A DNA stretch of 53,380 bases from a virus (lineage: Duplodnaviria > Caudoviricetes): IMG/VR virus record IMGVR_UViG_3300022074_000059, positions 1-53,380 of that record, one strand, 5' to 3'. Each line of letters opens with the position of its first letter. Position 1 is the stretch's first letter. Of this stretch, positions 19,653 to 40,084 are shown in pieces. The notes under the pieces were generated by a model that saw only the letters and a program-made list of their open reading frames with translations, was not told where the DNA came from and ran no database searches. The position numbers and the translations under genes are program-made.

Positions 19653-20549
19653 ATGTTAACCGAAGCTATAGAAAGTTACTTCGGGTGGATAAATGAGAGA
19701 CACTCGATCTACCTACGCAGGAGGTCGGGTGCTCCCGCCCCTTGGACTACTGACCGTATCCTACAGGAATTTAAGTTTACAAACCCTTTCCGTGAAAACG
19801 ATAGGGTTACTATTTGGATGCGTGAAAACTGGACAAAGCCAAACAACAATCGCCCTCATGGTGAGATACTGTTTAATTGTTGTTTATTCCGTATGATAGG
19901 CACAAGTGAGTTTGCCGAACAGCACGGCTGGGCAGAAAAATTTAACCCTGCTCGTACAAAAGAATTAATACAAACCAGAATTGAGAATGGTTTACGAACA
20001 TTTACTGGTGCGTATATAATCACTAACCAAGGACTCAAAGCACCAAAATCAGAGGTTGTGGTTGACCATTTTCTTAAGCCTATCTGGGAAAACAAAGAAG
20101 CGATGGCGCAGATCGCCGCCGAAACGCAGTCGCTCCAAAAAGTACATGAAGCGATGGGTTCCTATCGGGGATGGGGAGGGGGAGGTTTTATGTCATATGA
20201 GGTTGTTACCGACCTCAACCACACGCCTGTATTATCATCGGCAGAAGACCGTTATAGGTGGGCGAACGCTGGTCCTGGAGCAGTTAGGGGATTAAACAGA
20301 ATCCTTGGCTTACCTCTTAAAAAAGGTATGGGTCAGCCTATGGCTAATGATCATATGATCAAGTTGTTATCCAAAGCCCCTTTTTACATTCAACCTCATG
20401 TTCCCTTAAAAGAAGTTGATATGCGTACTATTGAGCATAGCTTATGTGAGTGGGATAAATATGAAAGAGTAAGGTTAGGCCAAGGTAGACCGCGCAGTAT
20501 TTATCGCCCTACCTTATTAACAGATACACCTAAAGGAGCTGTAGAATGA
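19653..20549 (+). CDS. aGPT-Pplase1 / HMUDK_hel family DNA base-hypermodification protein
   Basis: Signature ERHSIYLRR..G...PWT.D.IL..FKFTN.FRE.DR, GAYII, GFMSYEVVTDL, GPGA.RGL, IEHSLCEWDKY. Confidence 0.85.
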   Translation: MLTEAIESYFGWINERHSIYLRRRSGAPAPWTTDRILQEFKFTNPFRENDRVTIWMRENWTKPNNNRPHGEILFNCCLFRMIGTSEFAEQHGWAEKFNPARTKELIQTRIENGLRTFTGAYIITNQGLKAPKSEVVVDHFLKPIWENKEAMAQIAAETQSLQKVHEAMGSYRGWGGGGFMSYEVVTDLNHTPVLSSAEDRYRWANAGPGAVRGLNRILGLPLKKGMGQPMANDHMIKLLSKAPFYIQPHVPLKEVDMRTIEHSLCEWDKYERVRLGQGRPRSIYRPTLLTDTPKGAVE

Positions 20550-21517
20550 AAGTAGACCTTTATTATTTAAGCCCTAATCCCTATGGGGGATGGGTTACTT
20601 ATACAAATCATTTAATGATAGCATTGAGGGCTTCTGGTATTGATTGTGAGTTATTTAAAATCCGACCTAAAAGTGAACGTAAAACACGGGATTTTGGTTA
20701 TGGAAAAAGATACCGTAATATTTCTATGCAAGAAGCCTTGAGTAGAAAAAACACAATTAAACTGATAGTAGCTGGAGCTAAACAATTTAAAGATGAAACA
20801 GAAACACTTTATCAGGCGGGTGCTTGTTTAATAATACATGATCCGACAGAGTTAAAAAACTTACCTGAAAATTTAGATTTCACTCGTTGTGTGAGTATAC
20901 GTCAGATAGGTGCTAGAACATTACAAGGCACAGAATTTATTCGTCACCCTTATAAATGTTTTTCTGGGCATGCGATTACCCCTCGCAAAAAAGCAATCAG
21001 CACTTCTAGGATTGATTTCGACAAGCACACTTCTATCTTGTTAGATGCTAACCGCCTTTTGAAAGATGAAGATAAAATTGATATCCGTGGGTTTGAAAAC
21101 AGGATTTTCACACGGTTCAAAATTGTACCTAAGTACCCTGAGTGGGTTCAATCTGTTGCACAGTACCCAAGGGAAGAATCTTACGCTTTTGAAATGATGA
21201 CTAACTACACCTATAATGTAGATATGACACAAATTAAAGGTGATGGCGGGGGTACTCAGTATACTTGGCTAGAAGCGTGGAATGCTGGTTGTATACCGAT
21301 CATCCATGAAAACTGGTTGTTAGATCAACCAGATGATATGATTCCAGATAAAAACTGTATTGTGGTTAGTGGTGCAGAAGAGCTAGCAAAAGTTTTAACC
21401 GAAGAAGAAAACCACACTGCTTTAGCAAACATGAGAAAGCATTGCTTTGAAGCATTAGAAAAGCATGCCCCTGAACTAATAGGGCAAAAATACAAAGCCT
21501 TTTTAGAACGCCTTTAA
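20546..21517 (+). CDS. GT-B fold glycosyltransferase, putative DNA-modifying
   Basis: N-terminal YGGW loop; SRIDFDKH; GGGTQYTWLEAWNAGCIPII resembles the GT4 nucleotide-binding motif; coupled to the aGPT-Pplase1 gene. Confidence 0.65.
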   Translation: MKVDLYYLSPNPYGGWVTYTNHLMIALRASGIDCELFKIRPKSERKTRDFGYGKRYRNISMQEALSRKNTIKLIVAGAKQFKDETETLYQAGACLIIHDPTELKNLPENLDFTRCVSIRQIGARTLQGTEFIRHPYKCFSGHAITPRKKAISTSRIDFDKHTSILLDANRLLKDEDKIDIRGFENRIFTRFKIVPKYPEWVQSVAQYPREESYAFEMMTNYTYNVDMTQIKGDGGGTQYTWLEAWNAGCIPIIHENWLLDQPDDMIPDKNCIVVSGAEELAKVLTEEENHTALANMRKHCFEALEKHAPELIGQKYKAFLERL

Positions 21518-21596: not shown

Positions 21597-22574
21597 ATGC
21601 AATCTATTTATGCTCGCGGGGTAAGTGAAGCCCTGTTTCTAGGCAGACAAGCACTGCTTTCATCTGGTGTGGCAGTTGAAACACGCAATGGTTCAGCACT
21701 TGAGTTTCCCACTCCTGTTATTACTACCTATACACATAGCCGTGAAAGAGTTTTGTTTTATCCAGAACGCGACGCTAATCCTTATTTTCATTTAATGGAA
21801 AGCCTTTGGATGTTAGCAGGACGTAATGATGTCCCTTGGATTCAAGGCTTTAATGGTAAGATGGATACATACAGTGATGATGGTAAAACTTTCCATGGTG
21901 CGTATGGATACAGGTGGCGAAACTGGTTTGGTAAGGATCAGCTACAAGAAGTAATGTTTCGGCTTGGTACTTACCATAATGACCGCAGGGCTGTACTTGG
22001 TATCTGGGATCCCCACCAAGATTTAGTGCAAACTAATGATGGCAAAGATTACCCCTGTAATACCCAGATATATTTTTGGGAACGTAATGAAGATCTAAAC
22101 ATGACTGTGACTAACCGCAGTAATGATATGATTTGGGGAGCATACGGCGCGAATGCTGTACATATGTCCGTTCTGCTAGAGTATATGGCAGGAATGTTAG
22201 GCTACGGTGTAGGGACATACTATCAATTCAGCAATAACCTCCATGCTTACACCAGTGTTTTAGATAAGCTGGAAGGTATGCAAGCTGATTATGAACCATA
22301 CCTTACAATAGCTGATAATGGATTAAGCTATACTCCCCCTGCACTTATAGATGATTCAGATACTTTTGATGAAGAGTTGTTAAAATGGTTTGAAGATGAA
22401 GATCGTACAGAATATAATAATTCTTATCTTTCTACTACTTGTGGCGAAATGAGAAAATCATGGCGTTATTGGAAAGCAAAGAATTTTCCTAGCGCATACC
22501 ATCATGCCAATAAAATAGAAGACCGTGCTTGGCGCAAGGCTTGTATAGAATGGCTGGACAGAAGGGTAAAATAA
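21597..22574 (+). CDS. Thymidylate synthase homolog, likely dUMP hydroxymethylase
   Basis: GAYGYRWR, DRRAV, catalytic PCN, RSND..WGAYGAN with Asn at the dUMP-specificity position, NLHAY. Confidence 0.8.
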   Translation: MQSIYARGVSEALFLGRQALLSSGVAVETRNGSALEFPTPVITTYTHSRERVLFYPERDANPYFHLMESLWMLAGRNDVPWIQGFNGKMDTYSDDGKTFHGAYGYRWRNWFGKDQLQEVMFRLGTYHNDRRAVLGIWDPHQDLVQTNDGKDYPCNTQIYFWERNEDLNMTVTNRSNDMIWGAYGANAVHMSVLLEYMAGMLGYGVGTYYQFSNNLHAYTSVLDKLEGMQADYEPYLTIADNGLSYTPPALIDDSDTFDEELLKWFEDEDRTEYNNSYLSTTCGEMRKSWRYWKAKNFPSAYHHANKIEDRAWRKACIEWLDRRVK

Positions 22575-22939
22575 TGGAAGGGCATGAAGAGTATATGAAA
22601 CGCATGGCTAAAGAAGTAGATCAAACCAATAGTGCTATCATTCAAAAAGTTGATGTGTTGGCTAGTTTAGATACACTAAAACTAAATGAGGCAGAGCAAT
22701 CATATGGCGATAGTTGGAAACAACGCGGCGGGGTGGGTGCTTTTATGATGTTAGCTCGCAAATGGGATAGGCTTGAAAAGCAAGTAACAGAACATAATTA
22801 CGATGTTTTCCACGCTATTGAACAGGATGCGCGGGAAGAAGGTATTATTGATGATATCCGTGATTTGCGTAGGTATCTTTTTCTTGTTGAAGCTGAGATA
22901 GCATTAAGGAAAACAGATGGATCAGGAAAGCCCAAGTAA
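22574..22939 (+). CDS. Nmad1/DUF1599-like (MazG-like helical) nucleotide-modification-associated protein
   Basis: YGDSW...G.....RK.DRL and D...DL..Y pattern; TAATG coupling to the TS homolog. Confidence 0.6.
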   Translation: MEGHEEYMKRMAKEVDQTNSAIIQKVDVLASLDTLKLNEAEQSYGDSWKQRGGVGAFMMLARKWDRLEKQVTEHNYDVFHAIEQDAREEGIIDDIRDLRRYLFLVEAEIALRKTDGSGKPK

Positions 22940-23096
22940 CCTTGACAAAAAGGTTCAGGCTGAATGTGAGTGTGGTAGGGAAAAACGAATCGTCACTTTT
23001 CGTAACCTTAAAAACAGATGGCCTATTTGTAATAAATGTAAGCAACCGATGAAGGTAAAAGGTAATGCAATACCCCCTATTTCAACCACCGACTGA
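22917..23096 (+). CDS. Small Zn-ribbon protein (59 aa, not in ORF track)
   Basis: MDQESPSNLDKKVQAECECGREKRIVTFRNLKNRWPICNKCKQPMKV...; AAGGA RBS; fills the gap before polA. Confidence 0.55.
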   Translation: MDQESPSNLDKKVQAECECGREKRIVTFRNLKNRWPICNKCKQPMKVKGNAIPPISTTD

Positions 23097-24996: not shown

Positions 24997-25780
24997 TATA
25001 GGGATTATATCAGGAGGTTTTGACCCCCTGCACTCAGGGCATTTGGATTATATTTTATCTGCGGCAAAACAATGTCATAGACTTTACATAGGTGTGAATA
25101 GTGATGAGTGGCTCATAAAGAAAAAAGGTAAGGCTTTTATGCCCTTAGAAGAAAGAATAAACCTTTTAGAACACTTACACTTACCTTGCGAGTTTTTTGT
25201 TGTCCCTTTTGACGATAAAGACGATACCGCGAAGAGCTTAATAAAAGATGTACTAGCTTGTAATCCTAAAGATTTCATTTGTTTTATGAATGGTGGTGAT
25301 AGAGATAAACAAAACACCCCTGAGCATGAACTTCTCACAGAAATGTCTGATTCATACACACAATATCTAACATTCAACAACGACGTAGGTGGTTCTAATA
25401 AGAAAAACTCTTCCAGTGATTTATTAGATAATTGGTCAAAGGCCAAAACAACTCGTCAATGGGGGTATTACAAAGTTTTAGAACAAAAACCTACTCAAAA
25501 AGTTAAGGAGTTAGTGGTTTTTCCAGGAAAATCTTTATCTGATCAAAAACATTTTTCTAGAAGTGAACATTGGTACATACTGTCTGGTGAGTTAATTATG
25601 CACATGGAAACAGATAAAGCTAAAACTAAACAAGTATTATACCCACATCAAACAATAGTCATTCCTCGACAAACATGGCATCGCGCTGAAAACATTAATG
25701 CAGAGCCTTGCCATGTGATAGAAATACAATATGGAGATGTATGCGAAGAAGAAGATATAGAAAGAAGAAACCATGAGTAA
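24956..25780 (+). CDS. HxGH cytidylyl/adenylyltransferase fused to a mannose-6-P isomerase (type II)-like cupin
   Basis: SGGFDPLHSGH, GVNSD, NGGDR, SSS; cupin R.WG.Y..L, LS.Q.H..RSEHW, IEIQYG..EEDIER. Confidence 0.85.
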   Translation: MAAQKCGTTPNFHDIGIISGGFDPLHSGHLDYILSAAKQCHRLYIGVNSDEWLIKKKGKAFMPLEERINLLEHLHLPCEFFVVPFDDKDDTAKSLIKDVLACNPKDFICFMNGGDRDKQNTPEHELLTEMSDSYTQYLTFNNDVGGSNKKNSSSDLLDNWSKAKTTRQWGYYKVLEQKPTQKVKELVVFPGKSLSDQKHFSRSEHWYILSGELIMHMETDKAKTKQVLYPHQTIVIPRQTWHRAENINAEPCHVIEIQYGDVCEEEDIERRNHE

Positions 25781-26870: not shown

Positions 26871-26933
26871 GTAAGAACAGTCTTCTACAATTAGCTATTG
26901 TATATTAGGGTATTCTGCAGAAAGGGAGTGCTT

Positions 26934-27446
26934 ATGAATATCTTTATAGTTAATTGGGATCACACTATTTGTGCTCAATGGCATTGCAACAAACACGTTG
27001 TTAAGATGCCACTTGAGACTACCCAAATGCTCAGCACTGTCCACCACAGGTACAGTAATGATGGACCATTTTTACCTGTTCATCAAAAACACCCCTGTAC
27101 TTTGTGGGCAGGGCAAACGATTGAGAATTACCGTTGGCTTTGGCGGTTAGGTATCGCATTATGTAAAGAGTATACTTATCGCTATGAAAAAACCCATGCT
27201 TGTGAAAGAATTCTTGCAATGCTTCGTTGTCCTCCTGTAGAATTACAAGCGAGGGGGTTTACAAAACCCGCTCAAGCAATGCCCGATGAATATAAACATT
27301 CTGATACCCTCATGGCATACCAGAATTATTACATAGGAGAGAAAGCGAGGTTAGGTGTATGGCACAAAAGGCCAGTTCCCCCCTTCATGGAGGAGATAAT
27401 GTTATCCCGTTCATCCGACGAGAAAAACAATCAGACCCCATCATAG
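26934..27446 (+). CDS. Pyrimidine-dimer DNA glycosylase (DenV-like) family protein
   Basis: MNIF....C.KHVVKM.LE..QML, HPCT.W, NY.WL, EYT.RY, AQAMPDEYK, AY..YY. Confidence 0.75.
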   Translation: MNIFIVNWDHTICAQWHCNKHVVKMPLETTQMLSTVHHRYSNDGPFLPVHQKHPCTLWAGQTIENYRWLWRLGIALCKEYTYRYEKTHACERILAMLRCPPVELQARGFTKPAQAMPDEYKHSDTLMAYQNYYIGEKARLGVWHKRPVPPFMEEIMLSRSSDEKNNQTPS

Positions 27447-28572: not shown

Positions 28573-28764
28573 ATGGTTGAGTGGGTAGATCCAAGATTGA
28601 ATCTTCAAACCGTTGTACCCTATAAGGTGCAAGAAGATGGTTTTATCTATGGTGAGTTTCATCGGTTAAAGTACGCAATCGTTTTTGCCAAAGCTCTGCA
28701 AAAAGAGTTAGGTACTGATGTGAGTATACATGGACCAAATGGATGGGAGGAGTACGATGGGTAA
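28573..28764 (+). CDS. Hypothetical protein
   Basis: GGGGA RBS, tight packing. Confidence 0.55.
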   Translation: MVEWVDPRLNLQTVVPYKVQEDGFIYGEFHRLKYAIVFAKALQKELGTDVSIHGPNGWEEYDG

Positions 28765-28978
28765 AGTAAAAGAGCTTTGGATGAACGAGCTTGAAAAGTT
28801 GCAAGATGATTACTGCGAGGCTAACATTACTGAAGAAAAGTTTAGACGCAGTATGGCTAGCCTTGGAGTAGATTGTATAGATATTGATTGCTATATAATT
28901 GAAGCGCAACCATTGAGGGCGGTTAATCAAGCATTTAAACCGTTTTTTGATATAAATGGCAAATCTAAAGTGCAATAA
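28757..28978 (+). CDS. Hypothetical protein
   Basis: GGAGGAG RBS before ATG 28757 (MGKVKELWM). Confidence 0.6.
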   Translation: MGKVKELWMNELEKLQDDYCEANITEEKFRRSMASLGVDCIDIDCYIIEAQPLRAVNQAFKPFFDINGKSKVQ

Positions 28979-29147
28979 ATGTGAGCGCAAAGCAGAGGTA
29001 GAAACAAAATCTTCTCTGCTTTGTACCTCTTGTTGGTATAAAGATTATGTAACGCTCTCTAGAAAGGAGACGCAGAATTATGGAATTAGACCTCTTAACC
29101 GTGATTATGACAGTAATCAGCGTTCTAGCTCTTTTGTGAGGAATTAA
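28956..29147 (+). CDS. Small Cys-rich protein
   Basis: CNKC...CTSC. Confidence 0.45.
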   Translation: MANLKCNKCERKAEVETKSSLLCTSCWYKDYVTLSRKETQNYGIRPLNRDYDSNQRSSSFVRN

Positions 29148-29401
29148 TGGCTATTGATTATACACAACTGTTTCCTGTTGGGGATGATGTAACTCACCGC
29201 CTTTGCCCTGAATGTGCGGGTGATGGTCGCGTTGAATATGAACGTGCTGTTATAGATTATCAAAACGGTGGTTATCTACAAGGGTATATGGATGATTGCG
29301 AAACTTGTGGGGGTTGTGGCGAAATAGAAATAGATTACGAAAAACATTGTATTGTAGATGAGATAGGTAATCTATATTGGAAGCCAGATGAAAAATTTTG
29401 A
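29147..29401 (+). CDS. DnaJ-type CxxCxGxG zinc-finger protein
   Basis: CPECAGDG and CETCGGCG. Confidence 0.7.
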   Translation: MAIDYTQLFPVGDDVTHRLCPECAGDGRVEYERAVIDYQNGGYLQGYMDDCETCGGCGEIEIDYEKHCIVDEIGNLYWKPDEKF

Positions 29402-31301: not shown

Positions 31302-31838
31302 ATGGCTCTAGCCAAAGCTACTCACAAACCCACGATTGAAGTCGTCGCAAATCCTAGAAAAGAAAAACAGATCACGCCCAAGCAAGAAGAATTTGCACGA
31401 TTATATGTTTGCGAGGATATTTCACAAACAGAGGCCGCTGTCCGTGCTGGGTTTAGTGTGAAGTCAGCCCATGCTATTGCCTCACAATTACTCAACGGTG
31501 TGCGATACCCCCATGTGGTTGCAAGAATCCGTGAGTTAAAACAAGAGTTGTCTAAAAAATACGAGGTCAGTTTTGAAGGTCACGTCAAAAAACTTGCTGA
31601 GATCCGCGATGCCGCGATGACTGGAGGAAATTTTGCCGCCGCCGTCGCTGCCGAAAAATCACGAGGCCAAGCCGCAGGGATCTATATTGATCGTAAAGAA
31701 ATCCTGCATGGTAAAATTGACCAAATGAGTCGCGATGAAGTAATGCGTGAAATCAAACGAATTCAAGAAGAGTTCCCAGCTCTCGCGGTAGTTGCTGAGG
31801 GAAATATGATGATAGAGCATGATGAGGGTGATAAGTAA
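31302..31838 (+). CDS. terS: Terminase small subunit
   Basis: TPKQEEFARLY, TEAAVRAGFS.KSA...ASQLL, P.V...I.EL; AAV.AE..RG..AG.YIDR. Confidence 0.85.
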   Translation: MALAKATHKPTIEVVANPRKEKQITPKQEEFARLYVCEDISQTEAAVRAGFSVKSAHAIASQLLNGVRYPHVVARIRELKQELSKKYEVSFEGHVKKLAEIRDAAMTGGNFAAAVAAEKSRGQAAGIYIDRKEILHGKIDQMSRDEVMREIKRIQEEFPALAVVAEGNMMIEHDEGDK

Positions 31839-32949: not shown

Positions 32950-33255
32950 ATGATACAGTTTGTAGATATGAATGAAGATGGTGATATGGTGGTTACTAAC
33001 GAAGACCCTAGCCGCCTCATGTTGTTAACGACTTTGTGGTTTACGGACACCACTATGGTTGATGGCACACCATTTACACCTGAGCCTGAGGTACACATGG
33101 TATCGTGGACAGATGAGTTAAGGCAACGTGCCGAGTTGGCAAATCGCATCAATGCTCATAACGAGTGGGCAAGTGAGCAGGATGGTAGGCCAGTTGTCAA
33201 GTTTGCCAAGCAACAAGTCGTGCTTATCACGCCAACTACGACGGAGCTTGTGTAG
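32950..33255 (+). CDS. Hypothetical protein
   Basis: AGAAAGGAG RBS. Confidence 0.6.
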   Translation: MIQFVDMNEDGDMVVTNEDPSRLMLLTTLWFTDTTMVDGTPFTPEPEVHMVSWTDELRQRAELANRINAHNEWASEQDGRPVVKFAKQQVVLITPTTTELV

Positions 33256-33698
33256 TGGCGACTAAGCCTGAGTCCACGCTGTGGAAAAATCTCCGTGAGG
33301 GGACTAAAGACCTAGGTGTGTTTTGGACACGCCTAGAGTCTTGGTCTAGTCCTGGAGTGCCTGACTTGCACGGTATACTTGATGGTCATGCTTTTTGGCT
33401 TGAATTGAAAGTCCACAGGTTAAACTCACTAAAGAAGATTACGCTTCGTCCCCACCAAATTGCGTGGCAGATAAGATATAGCGGATATTCTGGAAACGTC
33501 TGGAACTTGGTTAGTCATCCTTCGTGCCGAACTATAAATATATTTCACGGTTCGAGGGCGATGGAGATTGCTGGACAAACGGAGGATAAAGGACCCATGA
33601 TTCCGGACTGGAGTTCGGGAGTTCCTTACGATTGGACGGGAGCCATCAATCATATTCTATCATCATCTCGTCCCTTCATAAAGGAGAGAGACCTCTAG
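33255..33698 (+). CDS. PD-(D/E)xK nuclease, Holliday-junction resolvase / VRR-NUC-like
   Basis: PES.LW, RLE....GVPD, FWLELK, LRPHQIAW. Confidence 0.8.
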   Translation: MATKPESTLWKNLREGTKDLGVFWTRLESWSSPGVPDLHGILDGHAFWLELKVHRLNSLKKITLRPHQIAWQIRYSGYSGNVWNLVSHPSCRTINIFHGSRAMEIAGQTEDKGPMIPDWSSGVPYDWTGAINHILSSSRPFIKERDL

Positions 33699-33847
33699 TT
33701 TCGTCATCTTTCATCTTCTATTTAGATACCCTCGTCATCATTCTTCGTCATTCATTGTCAGTAGAAGATAAAAGACGATTCGCGAGGTACGATCTTTTGA
33801 TGATGAAAGATGATGACACCGACAATTAATGAGGTTAATTGATAATT

Positions 33848-33882
33848 AAAGACTTGTCAATAAAACTCGGCCGTGCTACTCT
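33848..33882 (+). promoter_or_regulatory. Early-type promoter family copy (AAAGACTTGTC-N15-TGCTACTCT)
   Basis: -35 TTGTCA, 17-nt spacer, extended -10. Confidence 0.6.
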
Positions 33883-33932
33883 TACATCATAAGCAATGCA
33901 GCTTATGGACTATGTCGTAGAAAGGACATATC

Positions 33933-34352
33933 ATGACAACTAAAACTGTAAAATCTTCTCCTAAGGCAAAAGCCGTCGTTAAATCTGCTGAGCTCATTGT
34001 CACTGACAAAGAGATCACCTATCCCGAAATATGGGCGTTTATCCAAGAGCATGCTGGTGGCAATGAGGCGAACGTCAAAATTGTGCCTCTTGCAAATGTG
34101 GATACCGACAGCACCACTCCTGTCCCGTTCGGCTATGGTGGCAAGGCGGGAGGCGTCAGGCAAACCATACAAGACTGGATGCTCAAAGGCGTTGATGGCG
34201 ACACATCGTTAAAGGCCGCGCTCAACAAGGCCGCGCCTCTTGGTCACTCACGCAAAAAGCCGACGTGCTTGCATGCTTTGATGCACGGTGGTTATTCACC
34301 CTCTAGCAAATACTGGATGACACCATACGTCAAGCTCGTCGTCCAAGGTTAA
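33933..34352 (+). CDS. Hypothetical protein, paralog 1 of 34800..35246
   Basis: Shares TYP..WAFI.E..GGN..NV..VPL.NV, PVPFG..GK.GGVR..IQ.W.L.GV, LGHS.K.P.CLHA...GGYSPSS, YVKLVVQ with the 34800 protein. Confidence 0.8.
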   Translation: MTTKTVKSSPKAKAVVKSAELIVTDKEITYPEIWAFIQEHAGGNEANVKIVPLANVDTDSTTPVPFGYGGKAGGVRQTIQDWMLKGVDGDTSLKAALNKAAPLGHSRKKPTCLHALMHGGYSPSSKYWMTPYVKLVVQG

Positions 34353-34361
34353 CTCACATAG

Positions 34362-34390
34362 ACGGGACGTCAGGAGGGCGTCCCGTTTTT
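34362..34390 (+). terminator. Rho-independent terminator
   Basis: acgggacgtc/ggcgtcccgt stem plus T-run after the 33933 ORF. Confidence 0.7.
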
Positions 34391-34396
34391 CTCCCA

Positions 34397-34471
34397 TCCC
34401 ATCCCTGAGGACGAGGGATGATGATTCCCATTCCTGAGGACGATCCCCATAGGTATGTACTCATACCTATG
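34397..34471. repeat. 18-bp direct repeat plus 10-bp perfect hairpin
   Basis: tcccatYcctgaggacga at 34397 and 34426; cataggtatg-tact-catacctatg at 34448-34471. Confidence 0.7.
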
Positions 34472-34631
34472 TATCATTCATCATCTATCATACTCAATCG
34501 TCGTCGTCAATCATCCTCGGTCTCGGTTGACGATAATAGACGATCCTGGGAGAACAGCGGATTAAACAAGACTGGTCCAGCTGGTGTTGCTGGTGTTAGG
34601 CAATAATTATAGCAACCGCATAAAAGGAGGC

Positions 34632-34709
34632 ATGGGTATGTGGCTATTTGTAATAGCTATAGTATTACTAGGCTTAATAGGCTTAATGGGGCTAAATAAA
34701 AATAAATAA
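34632..34709 (+). CDS. Candidate 23-25 aa hydrophobic membrane peptide
   Basis: AAAAGGAGG RBS; MGMWLFVIAIVLLGLIGLMGLNKNK. Confidence 0.45.
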   Translation: MGMWLFVIAIVLLGLIGLMGLNKNK

Positions 34710-34799
34710 AAATAACGCTTGTTATTGACATTTAGCTGTGGCATAAACTAGGTATACCCCACAAGGGGCAACGCATAAACCGTAGAAAGGGTTTACAAA

Positions 34800-35246
34800 A
34801 TGCAAAACACTAATAAAGGTAAGGCAACCAAAAATGCCGCTTCGTCAACCGCAGTAGCTACTGTAGCTGTACCTACCTTACAGCATACAGGTACTGAGGT
34901 CACCTACCCGCAGTTGTGGGCGTTTATAAACGAGCAGGGTGGCGGCAACTTGCATAACGTGCAAGTAGTGCCATTGCCTAATGTGCAACTTGACCAAGCG
35001 CAACCAGTGCCGTTTGGTTTTAACGGTAAGGTAGGCGGCGTTCGCCACCAAATACAAACATGGTTGCTAACTGGTGTTAATGGTAACACTAGCCTAGCCG
35101 CTATACTTAGTGCGGCTAGCAAGTTAGGCCACAGTGCAAAACGGCCTAACTGTTTGCATGCAATGCTAAACGGTGGCTACAGCCCTAGCAGTGCTACATG
35201 GGGTACAGGCTATGTTAAGCTAGTGGTACAGCCGCAAGCCAAGTAG
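34800..35246 (+). CDS. Hypothetical protein, paralog 2 of 33933..34352, TC/GA-depleted
   Basis: AGAAAGGG RBS; promoter-like CTTGTT-N15-TGGCAT upstream; clear paralogy. Confidence 0.8.
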   Translation: MQNTNKGKATKNAASSTAVATVAVPTLQHTGTEVTYPQLWAFINEQGGGNLHNVQVVPLPNVQLDQAQPVPFGFNGKVGGVRHQIQTWLLTGVNGNTSLAAILSAASKLGHSAKRPNCLHAMLNGGYSPSSATWGTGYVKLVVQPQAK

Positions 35247-35283
35247 CAACGCAACCTAGGGGGGCTACGGGTCCCCCGCCACC

Positions 35284-35311
35284 AAGCCCCGCCACAGTGC
35301 GGGGCTTTTTT
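35284..35311 (+). terminator. Rho-independent terminator
   Basis: aagccccgc-cacagt-gcggggctt followed by T-run. Confidence 0.75.
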
Positions 35312-35526
35312 GATGACCCCCCGCGAGACGACCCCTTTACCCATGGTAGTGGGTAAAACCAAGTTTTGGACAAATCATGTGGTCCGTAGAAAGTTTTTAT
35401 GGTATTGACTTTTACTCGACTAAAAGCCGAGACGACATACCCCTGTTTCTGTAGAATTGTCATAGGTTCATTGCCCTAGAAAAATTTTCGATATATTTTA
35501 AATATATTCGCATTAATGAGGAACCA

Positions 35527-36996
35527 TTGCCCATGGACTTTCAGCTAGTACCTGATGAGCAGTTAAAAAAGTATGCCCATTTATTAGACCGCGCTAAAGA
35601 GATTACCCAAGCGGAGGCGGCGAAGAATGATTTTATGGAGTATTGTAAAACGGTTTGGCCTGAGTTTATTAATGGACGCCACCATAAAATAATGGCTGAG
35701 AAGTTTAACCGCATAGCTAGTGGAGAGTTAAAGCGGTTAATTGTTAATATGCCGCCCCGCCATACTAAAAGTGAGTTTGGCAGTTATTTATTGCCTAGTT
35801 GGTTAATGGGTAAAAACCCTAAATTAAAGATAATGCAGACAACGCATACGGCAGAGCTTGCTTTTAGGTTTGGCCGAAAGGTGCGTAATTTGATGAATAG
35901 TGGAGAATACACTAAGGTTTTTGAGGGTGTAGAATTGCGAGCGGATAGCCAAGCGGCGGGTAGATGGGAGACGAGTAAGGGTGGAGAATATTTTGCGGCT
36001 GGTGTAGGTGGCGCGGTGACGGGTCGTGGAGCGGATTTGTTGATAATTGATGACCCCCACAGTGAGCAAGATGCTTTAAGCCCTACGGCATTAGAGCATG
36101 CTTATGAGTGGTATACATCTGGTCCGCGTCAACGTTTACAGCCCGGAGGTGCGATTGTGATAATTATGACTCGTTGGGCAGAGAATGATTTAACGGGAAA
36201 ATTATTAAAGCAACAGGGTAGAGATATATTAGCAGATAAGTGGGAGGTTGTGGAATTCCCTGCATTGATGCCTGAGAGTGATGAACCTTTATGGCCTGAG
36301 TATTGGAAAAAGGAAGATTTGTTAAGTGTTAAGGGTAGTTTGTCGGTTGGTAAGTGGGAAGCCCAATGGCAACAAAACCCGACGGGCGATGTAGCGGCGA
36401 TACTTAAACGTGATTGGTGGAATGTGTGGGAAAAGGAAGATATCCCGCCATTAGAGTATATAATGCAGAGTTATGATACGGCGTATTCTAAAAAAGAGAG
36501 TGCGGATTATAGTGCTATAACAACGTGGGGAGTTTTTTATCCTAAAGAAGGTGGACCACCAAACATTATTCTATGTGATGCAAAACGTGGTAGATGGGAT
36601 TTCCCTGATTTGCGGCGTATGGCATTGGAGGAGTATAAGTATTGGGATCCCGAATGTGTGTTAATTGAGGCAAAAGCCAGTGGTATGCCATTAACGCAAG
36701 AGTTGCGGAATATGGGGATTCCCGTTATGAATTACACACCTAGCAGGGGTAATGATAAATTTACAAGAGTGAACTCTATTGCGCCATTGTTTGAAAGTGG
36801 TTTAGTATGGGCTCCAGATACACGCTGGGCAGAAGAAGTTATTGAAGAGTGTGCGGCGTTTCCTGCGGGGGAGCATGATGATTATGTGGATACGGTCACT
36901 CAAGCATTACGCAGATTTAGAGAAGGCGGTTTTATCCAGCATCCTGAAGATTATGAGGATGAAGAATCAGTTCCTGTACAGAGGATTTATTACTAA
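35527..36996 (+). CDS. terL: Terminase large subunit
   Basis: Walker A-like MPPRHTKS, Walker B LLIIDDP, MTRW, QSYDTA and HDDYVD nuclease motifs. Confidence 0.95.
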   Translation: MPMDFQLVPDEQLKKYAHLLDRAKEITQAEAAKNDFMEYCKTVWPEFINGRHHKIMAEKFNRIASGELKRLIVNMPPRHTKSEFGSYLLPSWLMGKNPKLKIMQTTHTAELAFRFGRKVRNLMNSGEYTKVFEGVELRADSQAAGRWETSKGGEYFAAGVGGAVTGRGADLLIIDDPHSEQDALSPTALEHAYEWYTSGPRQRLQPGGAIVIIMTRWAENDLTGKLLKQQGRDILADKWEVVEFPALMPESDEPLWPEYWKKEDLLSVKGSLSVGKWEAQWQQNPTGDVAAILKRDWWNVWEKEDIPPLEYIMQSYDTAYSKKESADYSAITTWGVFYPKEGGPPNIILCDAKRGRWDFPDLRRMALEEYKYWDPECVLIEAKASGMPLTQELRNMGIPVMNYTPSRGNDKFTRVNSIAPLFESGLVWAPDTRWAEEVIEECAAFPAGEHDDYVDTVTQALRRFREGGFIQHPEDYEDEESVPVQRIYY

Positions 36997-39365
36997 TGGC
37001 AATTAACCCACGGCCTAGCAATATTGATCGCAGTTTACTACAAGCCCCTAATGATACAGTTAGCGAGTTAGAAGAGAACCTCCTTGCTGATGATATTTCT
37101 ATAGAGATAGAACCTGATGATGAAGGTGGTGCTGAGGTAGTTTTTGGTGAAGATGATGACCTTGGTGAGCCAGAAAATTTTTATGATAATTTAGCAGAAT
37201 TCGTTAGTGATGAAACATTAGCAGATGTAGCTAGTTATGTAAGCCAATCAGTAGATGATGATAAATCTAGCCGTGAAGATTGGGTAGATACATATACAAA
37301 AGGTTTAGAATTGTTGGGTTTAAAGTATGAGTCCCGCACAGAACCGTTTGATGGTGCTACAGGTGTTATCCACCCAATATTAAATGAAGCTGTAACTCAA
37401 TTTCAGGCTGGTGCGTATAAAGAGATGTTGCCAAGTGGCGGTCCTGTGCGCGGTAATATTGTAGGTATAGCTACCCCTGAAGTAGAAGCCCAAGCTCAGC
37501 GCGTCCAAGATTACATGAATTATAAAATTATGTATGAGATGGAAGAGTACGAACCTGAGTATGACCAGATGCTGTATTATTTGGGTTTAAGTGGTAGTGC
37601 ATTTAAGAAAATTTACCGCGATGATGTATTAGGTCGGCCAGTAAGTAAATTTGTACCAGCTGAAGATGTTGTTGCACCTTATACAGCAACTGACTTAGCT
37701 TCAGCAGAACGAATCACACATATACTCCGTATGTCTAGTAATGAGTTACGCAAACTCCAAGTAAATGGTTTTTACCGTGATTTAGATATTATGGAGGATA
37801 GCGAGCGTGGCGAAGATGAAGTAAAGGATGCTTATGATAAGCTAGAAGGGCGTTCTTCTACTGGTGATACAGATGAAGCTACTTTGTATGAGTGCCATTG
37901 TTATTTAGATATTGAAGAATACCCAGATGTTGGCGAAGATAATGAAGAAACAGGGATAAAACTGCCATATATTGTCACAATTAGTGCTGATAGTGAAGAA
38001 GTTTTATCTATTCGTAGAAATTATGACCAAAATGACCCGATGAAGAAGAAAATTCCTCATTTTGTTCAATATAAATTCACTCCTGGACTTGGTTTTTATG
38101 GTTTTGGCTTAATTCATCTGCTCGGAAATTTGAGCCGCACGGCTACAGCTAATTTGCGCCAGCTTATTGATTCTGGAACGCTTAGTAATATGCCAGCGGG
38201 ATTTAAAGCTCGCGGTTTACGGATAGCAGACGAACAAACACCGATTCATCCAGGAGAATTTAGGGATATTGATATTCCTGGAGGTGATATTCGCACAAGT
38301 TTGATGGCTTTACCGTATAAAGAGCCTTCTGGAACGCTTTTTCAGCTTATGGGCTTTGTTATTGAATCTGCCCAGCGGTTTATTGGCACTACAGATATAG
38401 GAGTAGGTGATGGCAGACAAGAAATGCCTGTTGGTACTACTATTGCGTTGCTGGAACGTGGCGCAAAAATCATTAGCGCGGTACATAAACGCCTCCATGC
38501 CAGTTTAAAACAAGAATTAAAGATGTTAGGGCGGCTTTTTGCTGAAGATCCTGCCCCATATCCTTACGAAGTTGGTGAAGATGCCCAGATAAAATCAGCA
38601 GATTTTGATAATAGGGTAGATATTGTCCCTGTAAGTGATCCAAACATCTTTAGTATGTCCCAAAGAGTAGTTTTAGCTCAAGAACAGTTAAAATTGGCTA
38701 CTGCCGCACCCGAAATGCACAATATGCACGAGGCTTATCGGCGGGTTTATGCGGCTTTAGGTGTAGATAATATCGAACAAATTTTAAAACCTGAGCCACA
38801 ACCTCAGCAAATGGATCCTGCAACAGAAAACCAGTTTGCTAGTCAGGCGGCAGGGGGGCAGGGTAAATTGCAATCTTTCCCCGAACAAGACCATGATGCC
38901 CATATTGCTGTGCATATGGCTTATATGAATAGTAGGGTGGCACAAATGCAACCACCTATTTTGTTGACCTTAGAAAAACATATTTATGAGCATATTGGTA
39001 TGAAAGCTCAAGTTATGTTCCAGCAACAAATGCAAGCTGACCCGAATATGCAACAACAACCACCAGAAGCTCAAGCGGCGGTAGTAGCCCAGATGCAAGC
39101 ACAGCTTATGGCTGAGTTCCAGCAAAAAATGCCACCACAACCCCAAGGTGATCCACTGGTAGAAATTAAAAAGCAAGAGTTAGCGTTGCGTGAACAAGAA
39201 ATGCAGATGGATAACCAGACTGACCAGCAAAAAATGCAGTTAGATGCACAATTCCGTCAAGAAAATGTAGATATTGCTCGTGAGCGTATAGGTTCTACAG
39301 AAGATATAGCTCAAATGCGAGCGCAAATTGCTCGTGAAAGACAACAACAGAATAGGAGTGGCTAA
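36996..39365 (+). CDS. Portal protein
   Basis: Follows TerL; HPILNEAVTQFQA, GSAFKKIY, PGLGFYGFG, PVGTTIALLE; Q-rich coiled-coil barrel at C-terminus. Confidence 0.9.
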   Translation: MAINPRPSNIDRSLLQAPNDTVSELEENLLADDISIEIEPDDEGGAEVVFGEDDDLGEPENFYDNLAEFVSDETLADVASYVSQSVDDDKSSREDWVDTYTKGLELLGLKYESRTEPFDGATGVIHPILNEAVTQFQAGAYKEMLPSGGPVRGNIVGIATPEVEAQAQRVQDYMNYKIMYEMEEYEPEYDQMLYYLGLSGSAFKKIYRDDVLGRPVSKFVPAEDVVAPYTATDLASAERITHILRMSSNELRKLQVNGFYRDLDIMEDSERGEDEVKDAYDKLEGRSSTGDTDEATLYECHCYLDIEEYPDVGEDNEETGIKLPYIVTISADSEEVLSIRRNYDQNDPMKKKIPHFVQYKFTPGLGFYGFGLIHLLGNLSRTATANLRQLIDSGTLSNMPAGFKARGLRIADEQTPIHPGEFRDIDIPGGDIRTSLMALPYKEPSGTLFQLMGFVIESAQRFIGTTDIGVGDGRQEMPVGTTIALLERGAKIISAVHKRLHASLKQELKMLGRLFAEDPAPYPYEVGEDAQIKSADFDNRVDIVPVSDPNIFSMSQRVVLAQEQLKLATAAPEMHNMHEAYRRVYAALGVDNIEQILKPEPQPQQMDPATENQFASQAAGGQGKLQSFPEQDHDAHIAVHMAYMNSRVAQMQPPILLTLEKHIYEHIGMKAQVMFQQQMQADPNMQQQPPEAQAAVVAQMQAQLMAEFQQKMPPQPQGDPLVEIKKQELALREQEMQMDNQTDQQKMQLDAQFRQENVDIARERIGSTEDIAQMRAQIARERQQQNRSG

Positions 39366-40084
39366 TGGCTGATCCTGGAGGTGGCGGTCCGGGAGGATCT
39401 GGTGGATCCTCTGGTGCTGGCGGTGGTGCTGGCGGTGGTGCTGGTGCTGGTGATGCTGGCGAAGAGGGCGGTGGCTACAGTGATGCTGATGTAGGTGTTG
39501 GCTACGGAGGGAGTAGTGGAAGCACTTCGGGTGGTCATGGGGGAACCGGACAAGGCCGACAAGATGGTCCCGGAAGTGTAACTGAAGGTAATCAATTTGG
39601 TGGAGGCCAAGGCACTGCTTCAGAAGCTGGGTTAATGGATGCTATTAACTCGGCGATTGCTCGAGGTGTAAACCCTTATTCTGACACTTTCAACAATGTT
39701 ATTGCGGCGGGGATGATAAGTGGCAAGTTTGGGAACCCTGCTAGTTTTGGTATTGGCAATGTTGATATGGAATCCCCTGAGGTTGCTGGGTTTGTAGATC
39801 AATACAGCGGGCAAAATATTGGAGAAAAAGCATTAGGTGCGTTTGGTTACAATACGAATAAAAGTATTGGGCAAAATATTTTTGATACGATTACTCCAGG
39901 AAAACAAACGCCATTAGGTATAATATCAGCAGTTCCTAGTATGCTTGGTATGAATCCCGCGACACAATTAGGGATAACAGCCGCTAATAAGGCTTTAGGG
40001 ATAATGGGTATTGGTGTTGAAAAAGATACTACAATGTCTTCCATTCAAGACACTATAAACGATATGAACAGTAAGTTATATTAG
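39365..40084 (+). CDS. Gly-rich hypothetical protein, possibly internal to the virion
   Basis: AGGAG RBS, TAATG coupling, low-complexity Gly/Ser N-terminus. Confidence 0.6.
   Translation: MADPGGGGPGGSGGSSGAGGGAGGGAGAGDAGEEGGGYSDADVGVGYGGSSGSTSGGHGGTGQGRQDGPGSVTEGNQFGGGQGTASEAGLMDAINSAIARGVNPYSDTFNNVIAAGMISGKFGNPASFGIGNVDMESPEVAGFVDQYSGQNIGEKALGAFGYNTNKSIGQNIFDTITPGKQTPLGIISAVPSMLGMNPATQLGITAANKALGIMGIGVEKDTTMSSIQDTINDMNSKLY

What the first reader, a model, noticed from the sequence alone, without database searches (positions are those of the whole stretch)
34578..35271. ~690-nt cassette almost purged of TC and GA dinucleotides next to the presumed genome end
Seen: I count 10 TC+GA steps in 34578-35271 versus roughly 80 expected from base composition, and none in 35044-35271. 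Three of the 10 lie in RBS or promoter sequence (GGAGG, AGAAAGG, TTGACA). The 34800 protein has only three Asp/Glu (GAN codons), while its paralog at 33933 has many, so the constraint reshaped the protein. Inference: this is a modification-free expression unit (own promoter and terminator) that host RNA polymerase can read from modified virion DNA immediately after entry. Alternatively it avoids a TC-targeting host defence such as DarT or a deaminase.
Basis: partly seen in the sequence, partly recalled or inferred. Interest (0 to 1): 0.85.

Follow-up and report, generated by a model that had tools for sequence, protein, structure and literature searches.

The report
Gene cassette stripped of TC/GA dinucleotides
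A marine phage that chemically decorates its thymines keeps one small gene, with its control signals, almost free of the two-letter step TC on both DNA strands, probably so that this stretch stays ordinary, readable DNA, and the constraint is strong enough to have removed nearly all acidic amino acids from the protein.

Summary
Window 34578-35271 holds 10 TC+GA steps against a sliding-window mean of 69.6 (sd 11.1; next lowest window 41).

The trough runs 34577-35311. It covers a small membrane-peptide ORF, a weak promoter-like site, a 148-aa basic protein (para2) and two terminator hairpins.

Selection acts on DNA, on both strands:
- non-coding parts are depleted too;
- given para2's own protein sequence, 29.2±4.0 TC/GA are expected and 7 are seen;
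- Asp+Glu fall from 11 in the upstream paralog para1 to 3.

The normal-plus-purged tandem pair recurs in relatives. It also recurs in three distant complete genomes, one with 0 TC/GA in 462 nt at 37% identity.

The phage carries a 5-hmdU DNA kinase cluster. A relative without that cluster has no para gene and no trough.

No comparable trough was found in seven other phage genomes or in 1.37 Mb of kinase loci.

Best reading (about 0.5): an island that the phage's own TC-directed thymidine hypermodification cannot touch, so it stays transcribable.

Not shown: the modification context, the expression timing, and any nearby genome end. Two cluster-bearing genomes lack the purge.

The parts
19653..20549 (+). 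5-hmdU DNA kinase (5-HMUDK / aGPT-Pplase1), the presumed writer whose target context the cassette avoids
   Evidence: Pfam PF18723 HMUDK_hel E 3e-50. It is 35-37% identical to the kinases of M6/YuA-like phages, Sonora and PhiJL001.
20546..21517 (+). 323-aa protein next to the kinase; the position is held by different transferases in relatives
   Evidence: No Pfam, PHROG, PADLOC or NCBIfam family. Homologs occur in G009 and G010. G006 and G014 have a GT4/GT1 glycosyltransferase here, and G015 has a TAGT.
21597..22574 (+). Thymidylate-synthase homolog (presumed dUMP hydroxymethylase)
   Evidence: Pfam Thymidylat_synt E 7.6e-20. The hydroxymethylase activity is inferred from the pathway in PMC5889632.
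33933..34352 (+). para1: the normal paralog, 139 aa, D+E 11, TC+GA 48 in 417 nt
   Evidence: 58% identical to para2. It has more TC/GA than synonymous expectation, 48 against 38.4±3.8. It lies upstream of the purged copy in every related locus that reaches that far.
34461..34576 (.). TC/GA-rich tract that abuts the trough
   Evidence: 26 TC+GA in 116 nt. The 120 nt upstream of the low segment lie in the top 2% of 120-nt windows in 7 of 14 genomes or loci.
34577..35311 (.). The TC/GA trough itself (735 nt, 11 sites)
   Evidence: Maximal low-density segment; statistics.
34638..34709 (+). Small hydrophobic peptide ORF (23 aa from ATG 34638, or 25 aa from ATG 34632), preceded by GGAGG
   Evidence: Conserved as a peptide with changed DNA in 7 of 7 aligned close relatives. 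Absent from the cassettes of G009, G010 and G014.
34719..34747 (+). Promoter-like site: TTGTTA, 17 nt, CATAAA (weak, 8 of 12 matches)
   Evidence: It aligns with TTGTGC, 16 nt, CATAAT in relatives, and G014 has a similar TTGTAT ... TATATA site. The consensus scan did not report it.
34800..35246 (+). para2: the purged paralog, 148 aa, D+E 3, K+R 10, TC+GA 7
   Evidence: The AlphaFold2 model has pLDDT 84.8 and pTM 0.77. There is no fold match at E<=0.001 in PDB or BFVD and no family in four libraries.
35259..35311 (+). Two hairpins after the stop codon; the second is a canonical intrinsic terminator with a T-run
   Evidence: The terminator scan reports 35284-35307, 9 pairs of which 7 are G-C, followed by a T-run. 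The first hairpin, about 35259-35277, was read by eye.
35312..35526 (.). Intergenic region before terL, with a C-run/GAGAC block conserved in relatives
   Evidence: DNA alignment A1, and the same motif at the trough end in G009, G010 and G014. Its function is untested.
35527..36996 (+). Terminase large subunit
   Evidence: phrog_38 E 7e-111. It is 63% identical to Pelagibacter phage HTVC027P terL.

Best explanation
The cassette is a complete small transcription unit: promoter region, 5' leader, the para2 gene and terminators. In this sub-lineage it also holds a small membrane-peptide ORF. The unit has been kept free of 5'-TC-3' on both strands.

The phage replaces T with 5-hydroxymethyl-U during replication. 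It then uses a 5-hmdU DNA kinase and a transferase to hypermodify a sequence-defined subset of those bases. I infer that in this lineage the subset is T followed by C.

DNA without TC on either strand cannot be hypermodified, so it ends up as ordinary DNA. Phosphorylated or bulky groups on thymine in the major groove depress bacterial RNA polymerase. The cassette would therefore stay fully transcribable whatever the modification state of the rest of the genome. That includes the moment the hypermodified virion DNA enters a cell.

The upstream paralog para1 is rich in TC and is readable only from less modified DNA.

Shown: strand-symmetric, DNA-level, long-maintained selection against TC/GA over one transcription unit, and its co-occurrence with the kinase cluster.

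Inferred: that TC is the modified context, that modification hinders transcription in vivo, and the timing of expression.
For: Statistics and uniqueness:
- 10 against 69.6±11.1 TC+GA, and no other dinucleotide class is affected.

The selection is at DNA level:
- TC 4 and GA 6 are both depleted.
- The non-coding 34578-34799 has 3 sites in 222 nt.
- Codon positions 1-2, 2-3 and codon junctions carry 5, 1 and 1 sites in para2, against 18, 16 and 14 in para1.
- Back-translating para2's own protein gives 29.2±4.0 sites, minimum 14 in 5000 trials; 7 are observed.
- The same test gives z -5.5 to -6.9 in the 4 purged copies tested.

The selection is ongoing:
- Only 35-61% of conserved residues keep the same codon between para2 orthologs, against 43-78% for para1, yet TC/GA stays at 2-7 per gene.

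Conservation:
- 12 of 12 related loci are depleted, 0.005-0.055 against 0.10-0.13 in the rest of each locus.
- The normal paralog lies upstream wherever the locus reaches that far.
- Distant genomes G009, G010 and G014 hold 6/432, 1/426 and 0/462 sites.
- Each of those genomes has a single genome-wide trough, of the TC/GA class only.
- On the family tree, para2-type copies form one clade with support 86/100, and the purged state needs 2 changes.

Link to the modification system:
- The kinase and a TS homolog are in the window, and the kinase in 4 of 5 relatives' records.
- HTVC027P (terL 63%, PolA 52%, portal 52% identical) has no kinase, no para gene and no trough.

Boundaries follow the transcription unit in four diverged genomes.

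The protein still works:
- Net charge is kept: K+R 12.1 and D+E 2.5 in purged copies, against 19.5 and 12.1 in normal ones.

Literature:
- Hypermodification is sequence-specific (PMC8989533 and PMC5889632, passages).
- The context is TG/TC (PMC6449724, section 10), or TG and less TC (PMC13458397, passages).
- 5-HMUDK treatment turns E. coli RNAP transcription down to 37% of natural DNA (PMC6457204, passages).
- Bulky major-groove groups block initiation (PMC4838386, abstract).
Against: - No modification data exist for this phage. TC as the target is inferred only from the trough itself.
- G006 has the kinase (72% identical), both paralogs and the same GT4-type transferase as purged G014. Its para2-type copy has normal TC/GA, 41/420, z -0.4.
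- G015 also lacks the purge.
- No gene co-varies perfectly with the purge among six genomes.
- Five other kinase-bearing phages show no such island: M6, PhiJL001, Sonora, CN1, Matapan/ViI-like and SP10 were scanned. It is therefore not a general need of hypermodifying phages, which transcribe modified DNA without one.
- The promoter is weak by consensus and was missed by the scan.
- All other genes of the phage must also be expressed from the incoming modified DNA.
- Nothing shows early expression or a nearby genome end.
Confidence: 0.5

Rival explanations
1. The cassette avoids a host enzyme that attacks DNA at TC or GA, for example a thymidine ADP-ribosyltransferase of the DarT type or a TC-specific cytosine deaminase. 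That would let a counter-defence gene stay intact and readable while the rest of the genome is being damaged.
For: Both strands are purged, as expected for a DNA target. A single protected gene makes sense if its product stops the attack. The DarT motif TNTC and TC-specific deaminases are recalled from memory; no call tested them.
Against: - The trough goes with the phage's own kinase cluster and is absent from a cluster-less relative.
- Replacements show no deaminase footprint. Ile is ATA 3 of 3, Val is GTA 6, GTG 5, GTT 3, and AA/TT is not raised, 113 against a mean of 129.6.
- para2 and para1 match no PADLOC family.
- Damage elsewhere in the genome would still be lethal.
Confidence: 0.12
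2. The DNA must stay unmodified for a DNA transaction rather than for transcription. Examples are terminase recognition or wrapping at a pac/cos site, an origin, or a recombination site. The redundant gene copy simply happened to lie there and was recoded.
For: The cassette lies between terS (31302-31838) and terL (35527). It sits beside repeats, a palindrome and a conserved non-coding block. Hypermodification is said to occur before packaging (PMC8989533, passage).
Against: - 620-780 nt is long for such a site.
- The edges coincide with promoter-like and terminator elements in four genomes.
- Inside the gene there is no DNA-level conservation beyond the protein. Codon identity is lower than in para1.
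- The protein keeps its motifs and net charge, so it is under selection as a protein.
Confidence: 0.12
3. Selection acts on the mRNA. It would avoid GA-directed mRNA ADP-ribosylation (CmdT type) and a UC-cutting ribonuclease.
For: [quoted passage not shown] The mRNA strand has only 3 GA in the coding part.
Against: - It needs two separate RNA-level pressures to explain equal loss of TC and GA.
- The purge extends about 45-60 nt upstream of the promoter-like site in G009 and G014, and past the terminators, so it reaches beyond the likely transcript.
- The GA sites that remain lie in the Shine-Dalgarno sequences, the very targets named for CmdT.
Confidence: 0.05
4. It is a by-product of protein composition, of foreign origin, or of chance.
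For: The protein is poor in Asp, Glu and TCN-coded Ser, which alone lowers TC/GA.
Against: - A synonymous-level deficit remains, z -5.5 to -6.9.
- Non-coding parts are purged.
- Other dinucleotides are normal.
- The feature is conserved over deep divergence.
- No comparable TC/GA trough occurs in 1.37 Mb of kinase loci or in seven other phage genomes.
Confidence: 0.02

Closest known systems
Dinucleotide-specific thymidine hypermodification by the 5-HMUDK pathway (phages M6, ViI, PhiW-14, SH-Ab 15599)
   Same: The same kinase family and TS homolog are present. The published target contexts are dinucleotides, TG and/or TC (PMC6449724, PMC13458397).
   Different: No modification has been measured in this lineage. 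TG/CA is not depleted in the cassette, 99 against a mean of 93.4. The downstream transferase differs or is unknown. No modification-free island is reported in the passages I read, and none was found in M6, Sonora, CN1, Matapan, SP10 or PhiJL001.
Restriction-site or palindrome avoidance in phage genomes
   Same: Selection removes a short target sequence from DNA, on both strands.
   Different: Here the target is a dinucleotide. The purge is local to one roughly 0.7-kb transcription unit rather than genome-wide; the genome-wide TC/GA odds ratio is only 0.82. It is deep enough to change the protein's amino-acid composition.
CpG islands of vertebrate promoters (recalled, used as an analogy only)
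   Same: A promoter-associated stretch escapes a genome-wide base modification that represses transcription.
   Different: CpG islands keep the target dinucleotide but leave it unmodified. Here the target is deleted from the sequence. The organism, the chemistry and the scale all differ.
In vitro transcription switch by 5-HMUDK phosphorylation of 5hmU templates (PMC6457204)
   Same: The same enzyme family, acting on template DNA, lowers bacterial RNA polymerase output.
   Different: That was an artificial template, fully substituted, with E. coli polymerase. No natural case of a gene escaping this effect was described there.
HTVC023P-type pelagiphages with a TS + aGPT-Pplase1 pair (PMC9599517)
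   Same: terL, PolA and portal are 63%, 52% and 52% identical to HTVC027P. The paper reports the kinase and TS pair in its clades V, VIII and IX (passages read).
   Different: The cultured members HTVC027P and HTVC023P lack the para genes. The paper's main text contains neither 'dinucleotide' nor 'codon'. Its supplements were not seen.

Membership tests
Thymidine-hypermodifying phage (5-HMUDK pathway) | 5-hmdU DNA kinase | tested here: met
   PF18723 E 3e-50, 171.6 bits against a cut-off of 25.
Thymidine-hypermodifying phage (5-HMUDK pathway) | dUMP hydroxymethylase (thymidylate-synthase homolog) | tested here: inconclusive
   PF00303 E 7.6e-20. The family match cannot tell a hydroxymethylase from a true thymidylate synthase.
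Thymidine-hypermodifying phage (5-HMUDK pathway) | Downstream transferase (aGPT-Pplase2 or other) acting on the phosphorylated base | tested here: inconclusive
   The adjacent 323-aa protein matches no family. Relatives carry glycosyltransferases at this position.
Thymidine-hypermodifying phage (5-HMUDK pathway) | Hypermodified thymidine in virion DNA, in a defined sequence context | not testable with these tools
   Only assembled contigs of public runs were available.
Autonomous transcription unit (moron-like: own promoter and terminator) | Intrinsic terminator after the gene | tested here: met
   35284-35307, 9 pairs of which 7 are G-C, followed by a T-run. Hairpins follow the gene in G009, G010 and G014.
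Autonomous transcription unit (moron-like: own promoter and terminator) | Sigma-70-type promoter before the gene | tested here: inconclusive
   The consensus scan reports none in the cassette. A conserved site matching 8 of 12 positions was read from alignments.
Genome-wide motif avoidance (restriction avoidance) | Depletion of the target across the genome | tested here: not met
   The genome-wide TC/GA odds ratio is 0.82, and per-gene densities are 0.063-0.160 against 0.016 in para2.
Immediate-early or first-entering gene | Position at the leading genome end and earliest transcription | not testable with these tools
   No raw reads were available. The window and its relatives are 'linear' contigs whose ends lie elsewhere.
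HTVC023P-type pelagiphage | Shared core genes (PolA, primase, helicase, capsid, terL) with the cultured type phages | tested here: met
   Against HTVC027P: terL 63%, PolA 52%, portal 52%, primase 24% identical. No formal phylogeny was made, and the host is not shown.
Modified-DNA reader domain (type IV restriction sensor) | Domain fused to a nuclease, and binding to modified DNA | tested here: inconclusive
   One metagenomic 420-aa ORF joins a para-like domain (hhalign probability 98%) to HNH_2 (E 9e-11). It is a single case and binding is untested.

The most novel reading that the evidence does not exclude
DNA hypermodification imposes a transcriptional cost, and one widespread group of marine phages has answered it with a two-copy design.

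One copy of a gene, para1, sits in heavily modifiable, TC-rich DNA and is silenced as the genome matures. The second copy, para2, has been rewritten so that neither strand can be modified. The rewriting goes as far as a protein with no acidic residues. That copy is readable from virion DNA at entry and from mature DNA late in infection.

If so, the purge itself reads out the sequence specificity (5'-TC-3') of a still uncharacterised thymidine hypermodification.

The para domain is fused once to a type IV-like HNH nuclease. It may be a reader or shield of the modified base.
Probability: 0.3. Interest if true: 0.9.

Novelty: new variant of a known kind. Interest (0 to 1): 0.78.

Why it matters
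If the reading holds, a plain sequence statistic reveals three things. It gives the target context of an unmeasured DNA hypermodification in phages related to some of the most abundant viruses of the surface ocean. It shows that such modifications carry a cost for gene expression. It also shows that a DNA-level constraint can reshape a protein family.

On the last point, 36 of 70 representative clusters of at least 120 aa have two or fewer Asp+Glu.

The reading gives simple, direct tests. These are the kinase's specificity on 5hmU DNA, and transcription of para1 against para2 templates.

It also suggests a general way to search phage genomes for 'unmodifiable' islands. Even if the mechanism proves different, a gene-sized purge of one dinucleotide, kept through deep divergence, needs an explanation.

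Tried and rejected
Function of para2:
- No family in Pfam, PHROGs, PADLOC or NCBIfam.
- Foldseek against PDB and BFVD gave a best E of 1.3 and 2.7.
- A PDB profile search gave only E 0.2.
- The ESM Atlas returned only unnamed viral clusters.

Cultured relatives with para2: none in the phage collection, by DNA or by tblastn.

Expression and termini:
- All 24 runs listed are assembled contigs.
- Contigs of two metatranscriptomes of one study cover the cassette: X15 34588-35136, and X17 34587-34830, 34819-35030 and 35144-35354.
- These give no level, strand or ends, and RNA libraries can hold DNA. No conclusion was drawn.

RNA elements: Rfam gave nothing below E 0.5 in 33600-35700.

Generality:
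- No island in M6, PhiJL001, HTVC027P, Sonora, CN1 or Matapan.
- Half-depth TC/GA dips in Sonora and Matapan lie in tail genes.
- A TA dip in SP10 is a GAAGAT low-complexity acidic tail.

A gene that co-varies with the purge: none among six genomes.

Restriction signature: palindromes with and without TC/GA gave no clear contrast.

Context of the fusion protein P0187: the metagenome scan returned only relatives of its HNH part.

Earlier notes of this scan: nothing found.

I first labelled 33255-33698 as HNH. Pfam and NCBIfam give no such match, so it is only a PHROG 'endonuclease' hit.

Complex prediction was not used, because the report does not claim binding.
Full report
**1. The observation**

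Window 34578-35271 (694 nt) holds 4 TC and 6 GA. Base composition predicts 85-87. The mean of all 694-nt windows is 69.6 (sd 11.1), and the next lowest non-overlapping window has 41.

The 230-nt run 35042-35272 has no TC/GA. The longest such run outside the cassette is 68 nt. None of the other nine strand-symmetric dinucleotide classes shows a trough beyond z -3.6, and in the cassette the other classes are ordinary.

The maximal low-density segment is 34577-35311: 735 nt with 11 sites.

The window is a 53,380-base 'linear' virus record, estimated 91% complete.

**2. Anatomy**

Upstream lies para1 (33933-34352, 139 aa). A hairpin with a T-run follows it (read by eye). Next come two 18-nt direct repeats and a perfect palindrome. 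Then comes a tract very rich in TC/GA, 26 sites in 116 nt at 34461-34576.

The trough then holds, in order:
- a 23-25-aa hydrophobic peptide ORF with a GGAGG site;
- a weak promoter-like site, TTGTTA, 17 nt, CATAAA (34719-34747);
- a leader with AGAAAGG;
- para2 (34800-35246, 148 aa);
- a G/C hairpin;
- a canonical terminator at 35284-35307.

The consensus promoter scan reports nothing inside the cassette, so the promoter rests only on conservation in alignments.

terL starts at 35527, and terS is at 31302-31838.

**3. The selection is on DNA, on both strands, and continues**

para1 and para2 are 58% identical.

- TC/GA at codon positions 1-2, at positions 2-3 and at codon junctions number 18, 16 and 14 in para1. 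They number 5, 1 and 1 in para2.
- Ser uses AGY in 7 of 9 codons, Ile is ATA 3 of 3, and the stop codon is TAG.
- Asp+Glu fall from 11 to 3.
- Random back-translation of para2's own protein with the phage's codon usage gives 29.2±4.0 sites, with a minimum of 14 in 5000 trials. Seven are seen. para1 has 48 against 38.4±3.8.
- The non-coding 34578-34799 has 3 sites in 222 nt.
- Between orthologs, only 35-61% of conserved residues keep the same codon in para2, against 43-78% in para1. Even so, each para2 gene holds 2-7 sites.

The sequence therefore drifts freely except that it may not create TC or GA. This also argues against conserved DNA motifs inside the gene.

Replacements show no deaminase-like bias.

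Purged copies lost basic residues as well, which keeps net charge. K+R is 12.1 and D+E 2.5 over 13 purged copies, against 19.5 and 12.1 over 17 normal copies. The protein is therefore still under selection as a protein.

**4. Relatives**

All 12 IMG/VR loci found with para2 are depleted over the match. Densities are 0.005-0.055, against 0.10-0.13 in the rest of each locus. Four of the twelve are only partly depleted, at 0.036-0.055.

Wherever the locus reaches upstream, a normal para1-type copy (0.097-0.137) precedes the purged copy.

From 80 kinase loci I took ten long records and asked for para2:
- G009, G010 and G014 have a normal copy plus a purged copy with 6/432, 1/426 and 0/462 sites. 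The G014 purged copy is only 37% identical to para2.
- G006 has both copies, but neither is purged.
- G015 has one para2-type copy with normal TC/GA.
- G007 and G008 each have one distant, normal homolog.
- G011, G012 and G013 have none.

Whole-genome scans show a single deep trough, of the TC/GA class only, in G000, G009, G010 and G014 (minimum 8, 7, 1 and 0 per 500 nt; z -4.7 to -5.9). G006 and G015 show none.

In the four purged genomes the trough starts 45-140 nt before a promoter-like site and ends just after the terminator hairpins. The small peptide ORF is found only in the window's sub-lineage.

On a maximum-likelihood tree, para2-type copies form one clade with support 86/100. G006's second copy is sister to the purged ones (88/84). 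The purged state needs two changes; long branches make the place of G015 and G014 unsure.

G015's copy has only 2 Asp+Glu in 172 aa but no synonymous deficit (z +1.8). This looks like a protein-level fossil of a purge whose DNA-level cause has lapsed. G006's copy shows z -0.4.

**5. How widespread the family is**

A word-indexed search gave 164 homologs, of which 120 were listed. Forty of those have no Asp or Glu at all.

A profile search of 1.84 billion representatives gave 94 clusters at E<=0.001. Of the 70 representatives of 120 aa or more, 36 have two or fewer Asp+Glu.

**6. Link to DNA modification**

The window encodes a 5-hmdU DNA kinase (PF18723, E 3e-50) and a thymidylate-synthase homolog. 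Next to the kinase is a 323-aa protein of no known family. Nearby are an HD phosphohydrolase and a cytidylyltransferase-cupin fusion.

The kinase was found in 4 of 5 relatives' records. The fifth record is a 46% fragment.

The closest cultured phage, Pelagibacter phage HTVC027P, shares terL, PolA and portal at 63%, 52% and 52% identity. It has no kinase, no TS homolog, no para gene and no trough.

A 2022 study reports the TS plus kinase pair in three clades of HTVC023P-type pelagiphages (PMC9599517, passages). Its main text contains neither 'dinucleotide' nor 'codon'. Its supplements were not available to me.

The gene beside the kinase varies between genomes. It is the 323-aa type in G000, G009 and G010, a GT4/GT1 glycosyltransferase in G006 and G014, and a TET-associated glycosyltransferase in G015. 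No gene co-varies perfectly with the purge.

**7. What the literature allows**

- In these phages, 5hmU in new DNA is converted in sequence-specific contexts to the hypermodified base or to thymine (PMC8989533 and PMC5889632, passages).
- Restriction patterns point to TG/TC in M6, ViI and PhiW-14 (PMC6449724, section 10).
- They point to TG, and to a lesser extent TC, in an Acinetobacter phage (PMC13458397, passages).
- Phosphorylation of a 5hmU template by 5-HMUDK cut E. coli RNA polymerase output to 37% of natural DNA and 10% of 5hmU DNA (PMC6457204, passages).
- Bulky major-groove groups block transcription, probably at initiation (PMC4838386, abstract).

Searches for a reported modification-free island or local dinucleotide purge in such phages found none. 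These cover open-access papers and bioRxiv only.

**8. Controls**

No comparable TC/GA trough, meaning a minimum at or below 30% of the mean, was found in any of these:
- 80 kinase loci of 1,374,584 bases;
- M6;
- PhiJL001;
- HTVC027P;
- Sonora, CN1, Matapan and SP10.

Half-depth TC/GA dips in Sonora and Matapan lie in tail genes. A TA dip in SP10 is a low-complexity acidic tail.

**9. Reading**

The simplest account is an island that the phage's own TC-directed thymidine hypermodification cannot touch. It would stay canonical DNA, readable by host RNA polymerase whatever the state of the rest of the genome.

Three observations fit this account better than an RNA-level or packaging-site account:
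- the strand symmetry;
- the inclusion of the promoter region and terminators;
- the tie to the kinase cluster.

The retention of a TC-rich twin suggests a pair with different sensitivity to modification. para1 copies exceed synonymous expectation in 4 of 5 genomes.

The weak points are these:
- the modified context is inferred from the trough itself;
- G006 and G015 are exceptions;
- other hypermodifying phages manage without such an island.

**10. What para does**

This is unknown. The AlphaFold2 model is confident (pLDDT 84.8) but matches no known fold.

There is one lead. A single 420-aa metagenomic ORF joins a para-like domain (hhalign probability 98%) to an HNH_2 nuclease. It also gives a weak hit to a phosphorothioate-DNA restriction endonuclease model. 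That is the layout of modification-dependent restriction enzymes.

This hints that the para domain reads DNA, perhaps modified DNA. It is one case and it is untested.

**11. Verdict**

This is a real, extreme and conserved feature. It is best explained as a self-made unmodifiable transcription unit in a thymidine-hypermodifying marine phage lineage.

It is a new variant of motif avoidance: local, at dinucleotide level, and strong enough to reshape a protein. The mechanism is inferred, not shown.

Noticed in passing
window 34461-34576; also the 120 nt upstream of the trough in G009, G010, G014 and L003-L013: A tract unusually rich in TC/GA abuts the purged cassette, with 26 sites in 116 nt in the window. 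The upstream 120 nt rank in the top 2% of 120-nt windows in 7 of 14 genomes or loci, and in the top 12.3% in 13 of 14. In G014 the tract is five TCAAG repeats.
   Followed up: partly
window 34397-34471: Two 18-nt direct repeats lie 29 nt apart, followed by a perfect palindrome with 10-nt arms. They sit between the para1 terminator and the cassette.
   Followed up: no
window 35312-35380; same place in L003-L012, G009, G010, G014: A non-coding block right after the terminators (a C-run followed by GAGAC) is conserved at DNA level in relatives and marks the end of the trough. It may be a packaging or regulatory site.
   Followed up: no
window 20546-21517; G006 22058-23350; G014 8283-9596; G015 28582-29331: The gene beside the 5-hmdU DNA kinase differs between relatives. 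It is a 323-aa protein of no family, a GT4/GT1 glycosyltransferase, or a TET-associated glycosyltransferase. This suggests different hypermodification chemistries within one phage group.
   Followed up: partly
window 24956-25780: A fusion of a cytidylyltransferase-like domain and a mannose-6-phosphate-isomerase-type cupin lies beside PolA. It may supply an activated donor for the modification.
   Followed up: no
protein P0187 (metagenome, 420 aa): A para-like domain is fused to an HNH_2 nuclease, which is a type IV restriction-like layout. It is a single case.
   Followed up: partly
G015 (virus record), single para2-type gene: The protein has only 2 Asp+Glu in 172 aa, but the gene has normal TC/GA (z +1.8 against synonymous expectation). 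This looks like a relaxed former purge.
   Followed up: partly
whole genomes G000, G009, G010, G014 versus G006, G015, HTVC027P, M6, PhiJL001: GATC+TCGA observed/expected is 0.52-0.63 in the four genomes with a purged cassette and 0.74-1.07 in the five others. The genome-wide TC/GA odds ratio is 0.80-0.92 against 0.94-1.34. The sample is small.
   Followed up: partly
window 34720-34734 and 35400-35414; 34780-34795 and 35384-35399: Two short motifs recur before para2 and before terL: one 15-nt motif containing TATTGAC, and one 16-nt motif beginning CCGTAGAAAG. They may be shared regulatory sites.
   Followed up: no
window 39223-39623: Summed contig depth in four marine RNA runs is very high here (975-1764 in three of them). 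Loose ends show Gly-rich repeats from other organisms, so this is a low-complexity cross-match and not expression.
   Followed up: no
window 26898-27446: A 182-aa protein gives a strong PHROG 'DNA binding protein' match (E 1e-56) and a weak pyrimidine-dimer glycosylase match (E 4e-4). It lies near the modification genes and is present in G006, G010, G014 and G015.
   Followed up: no
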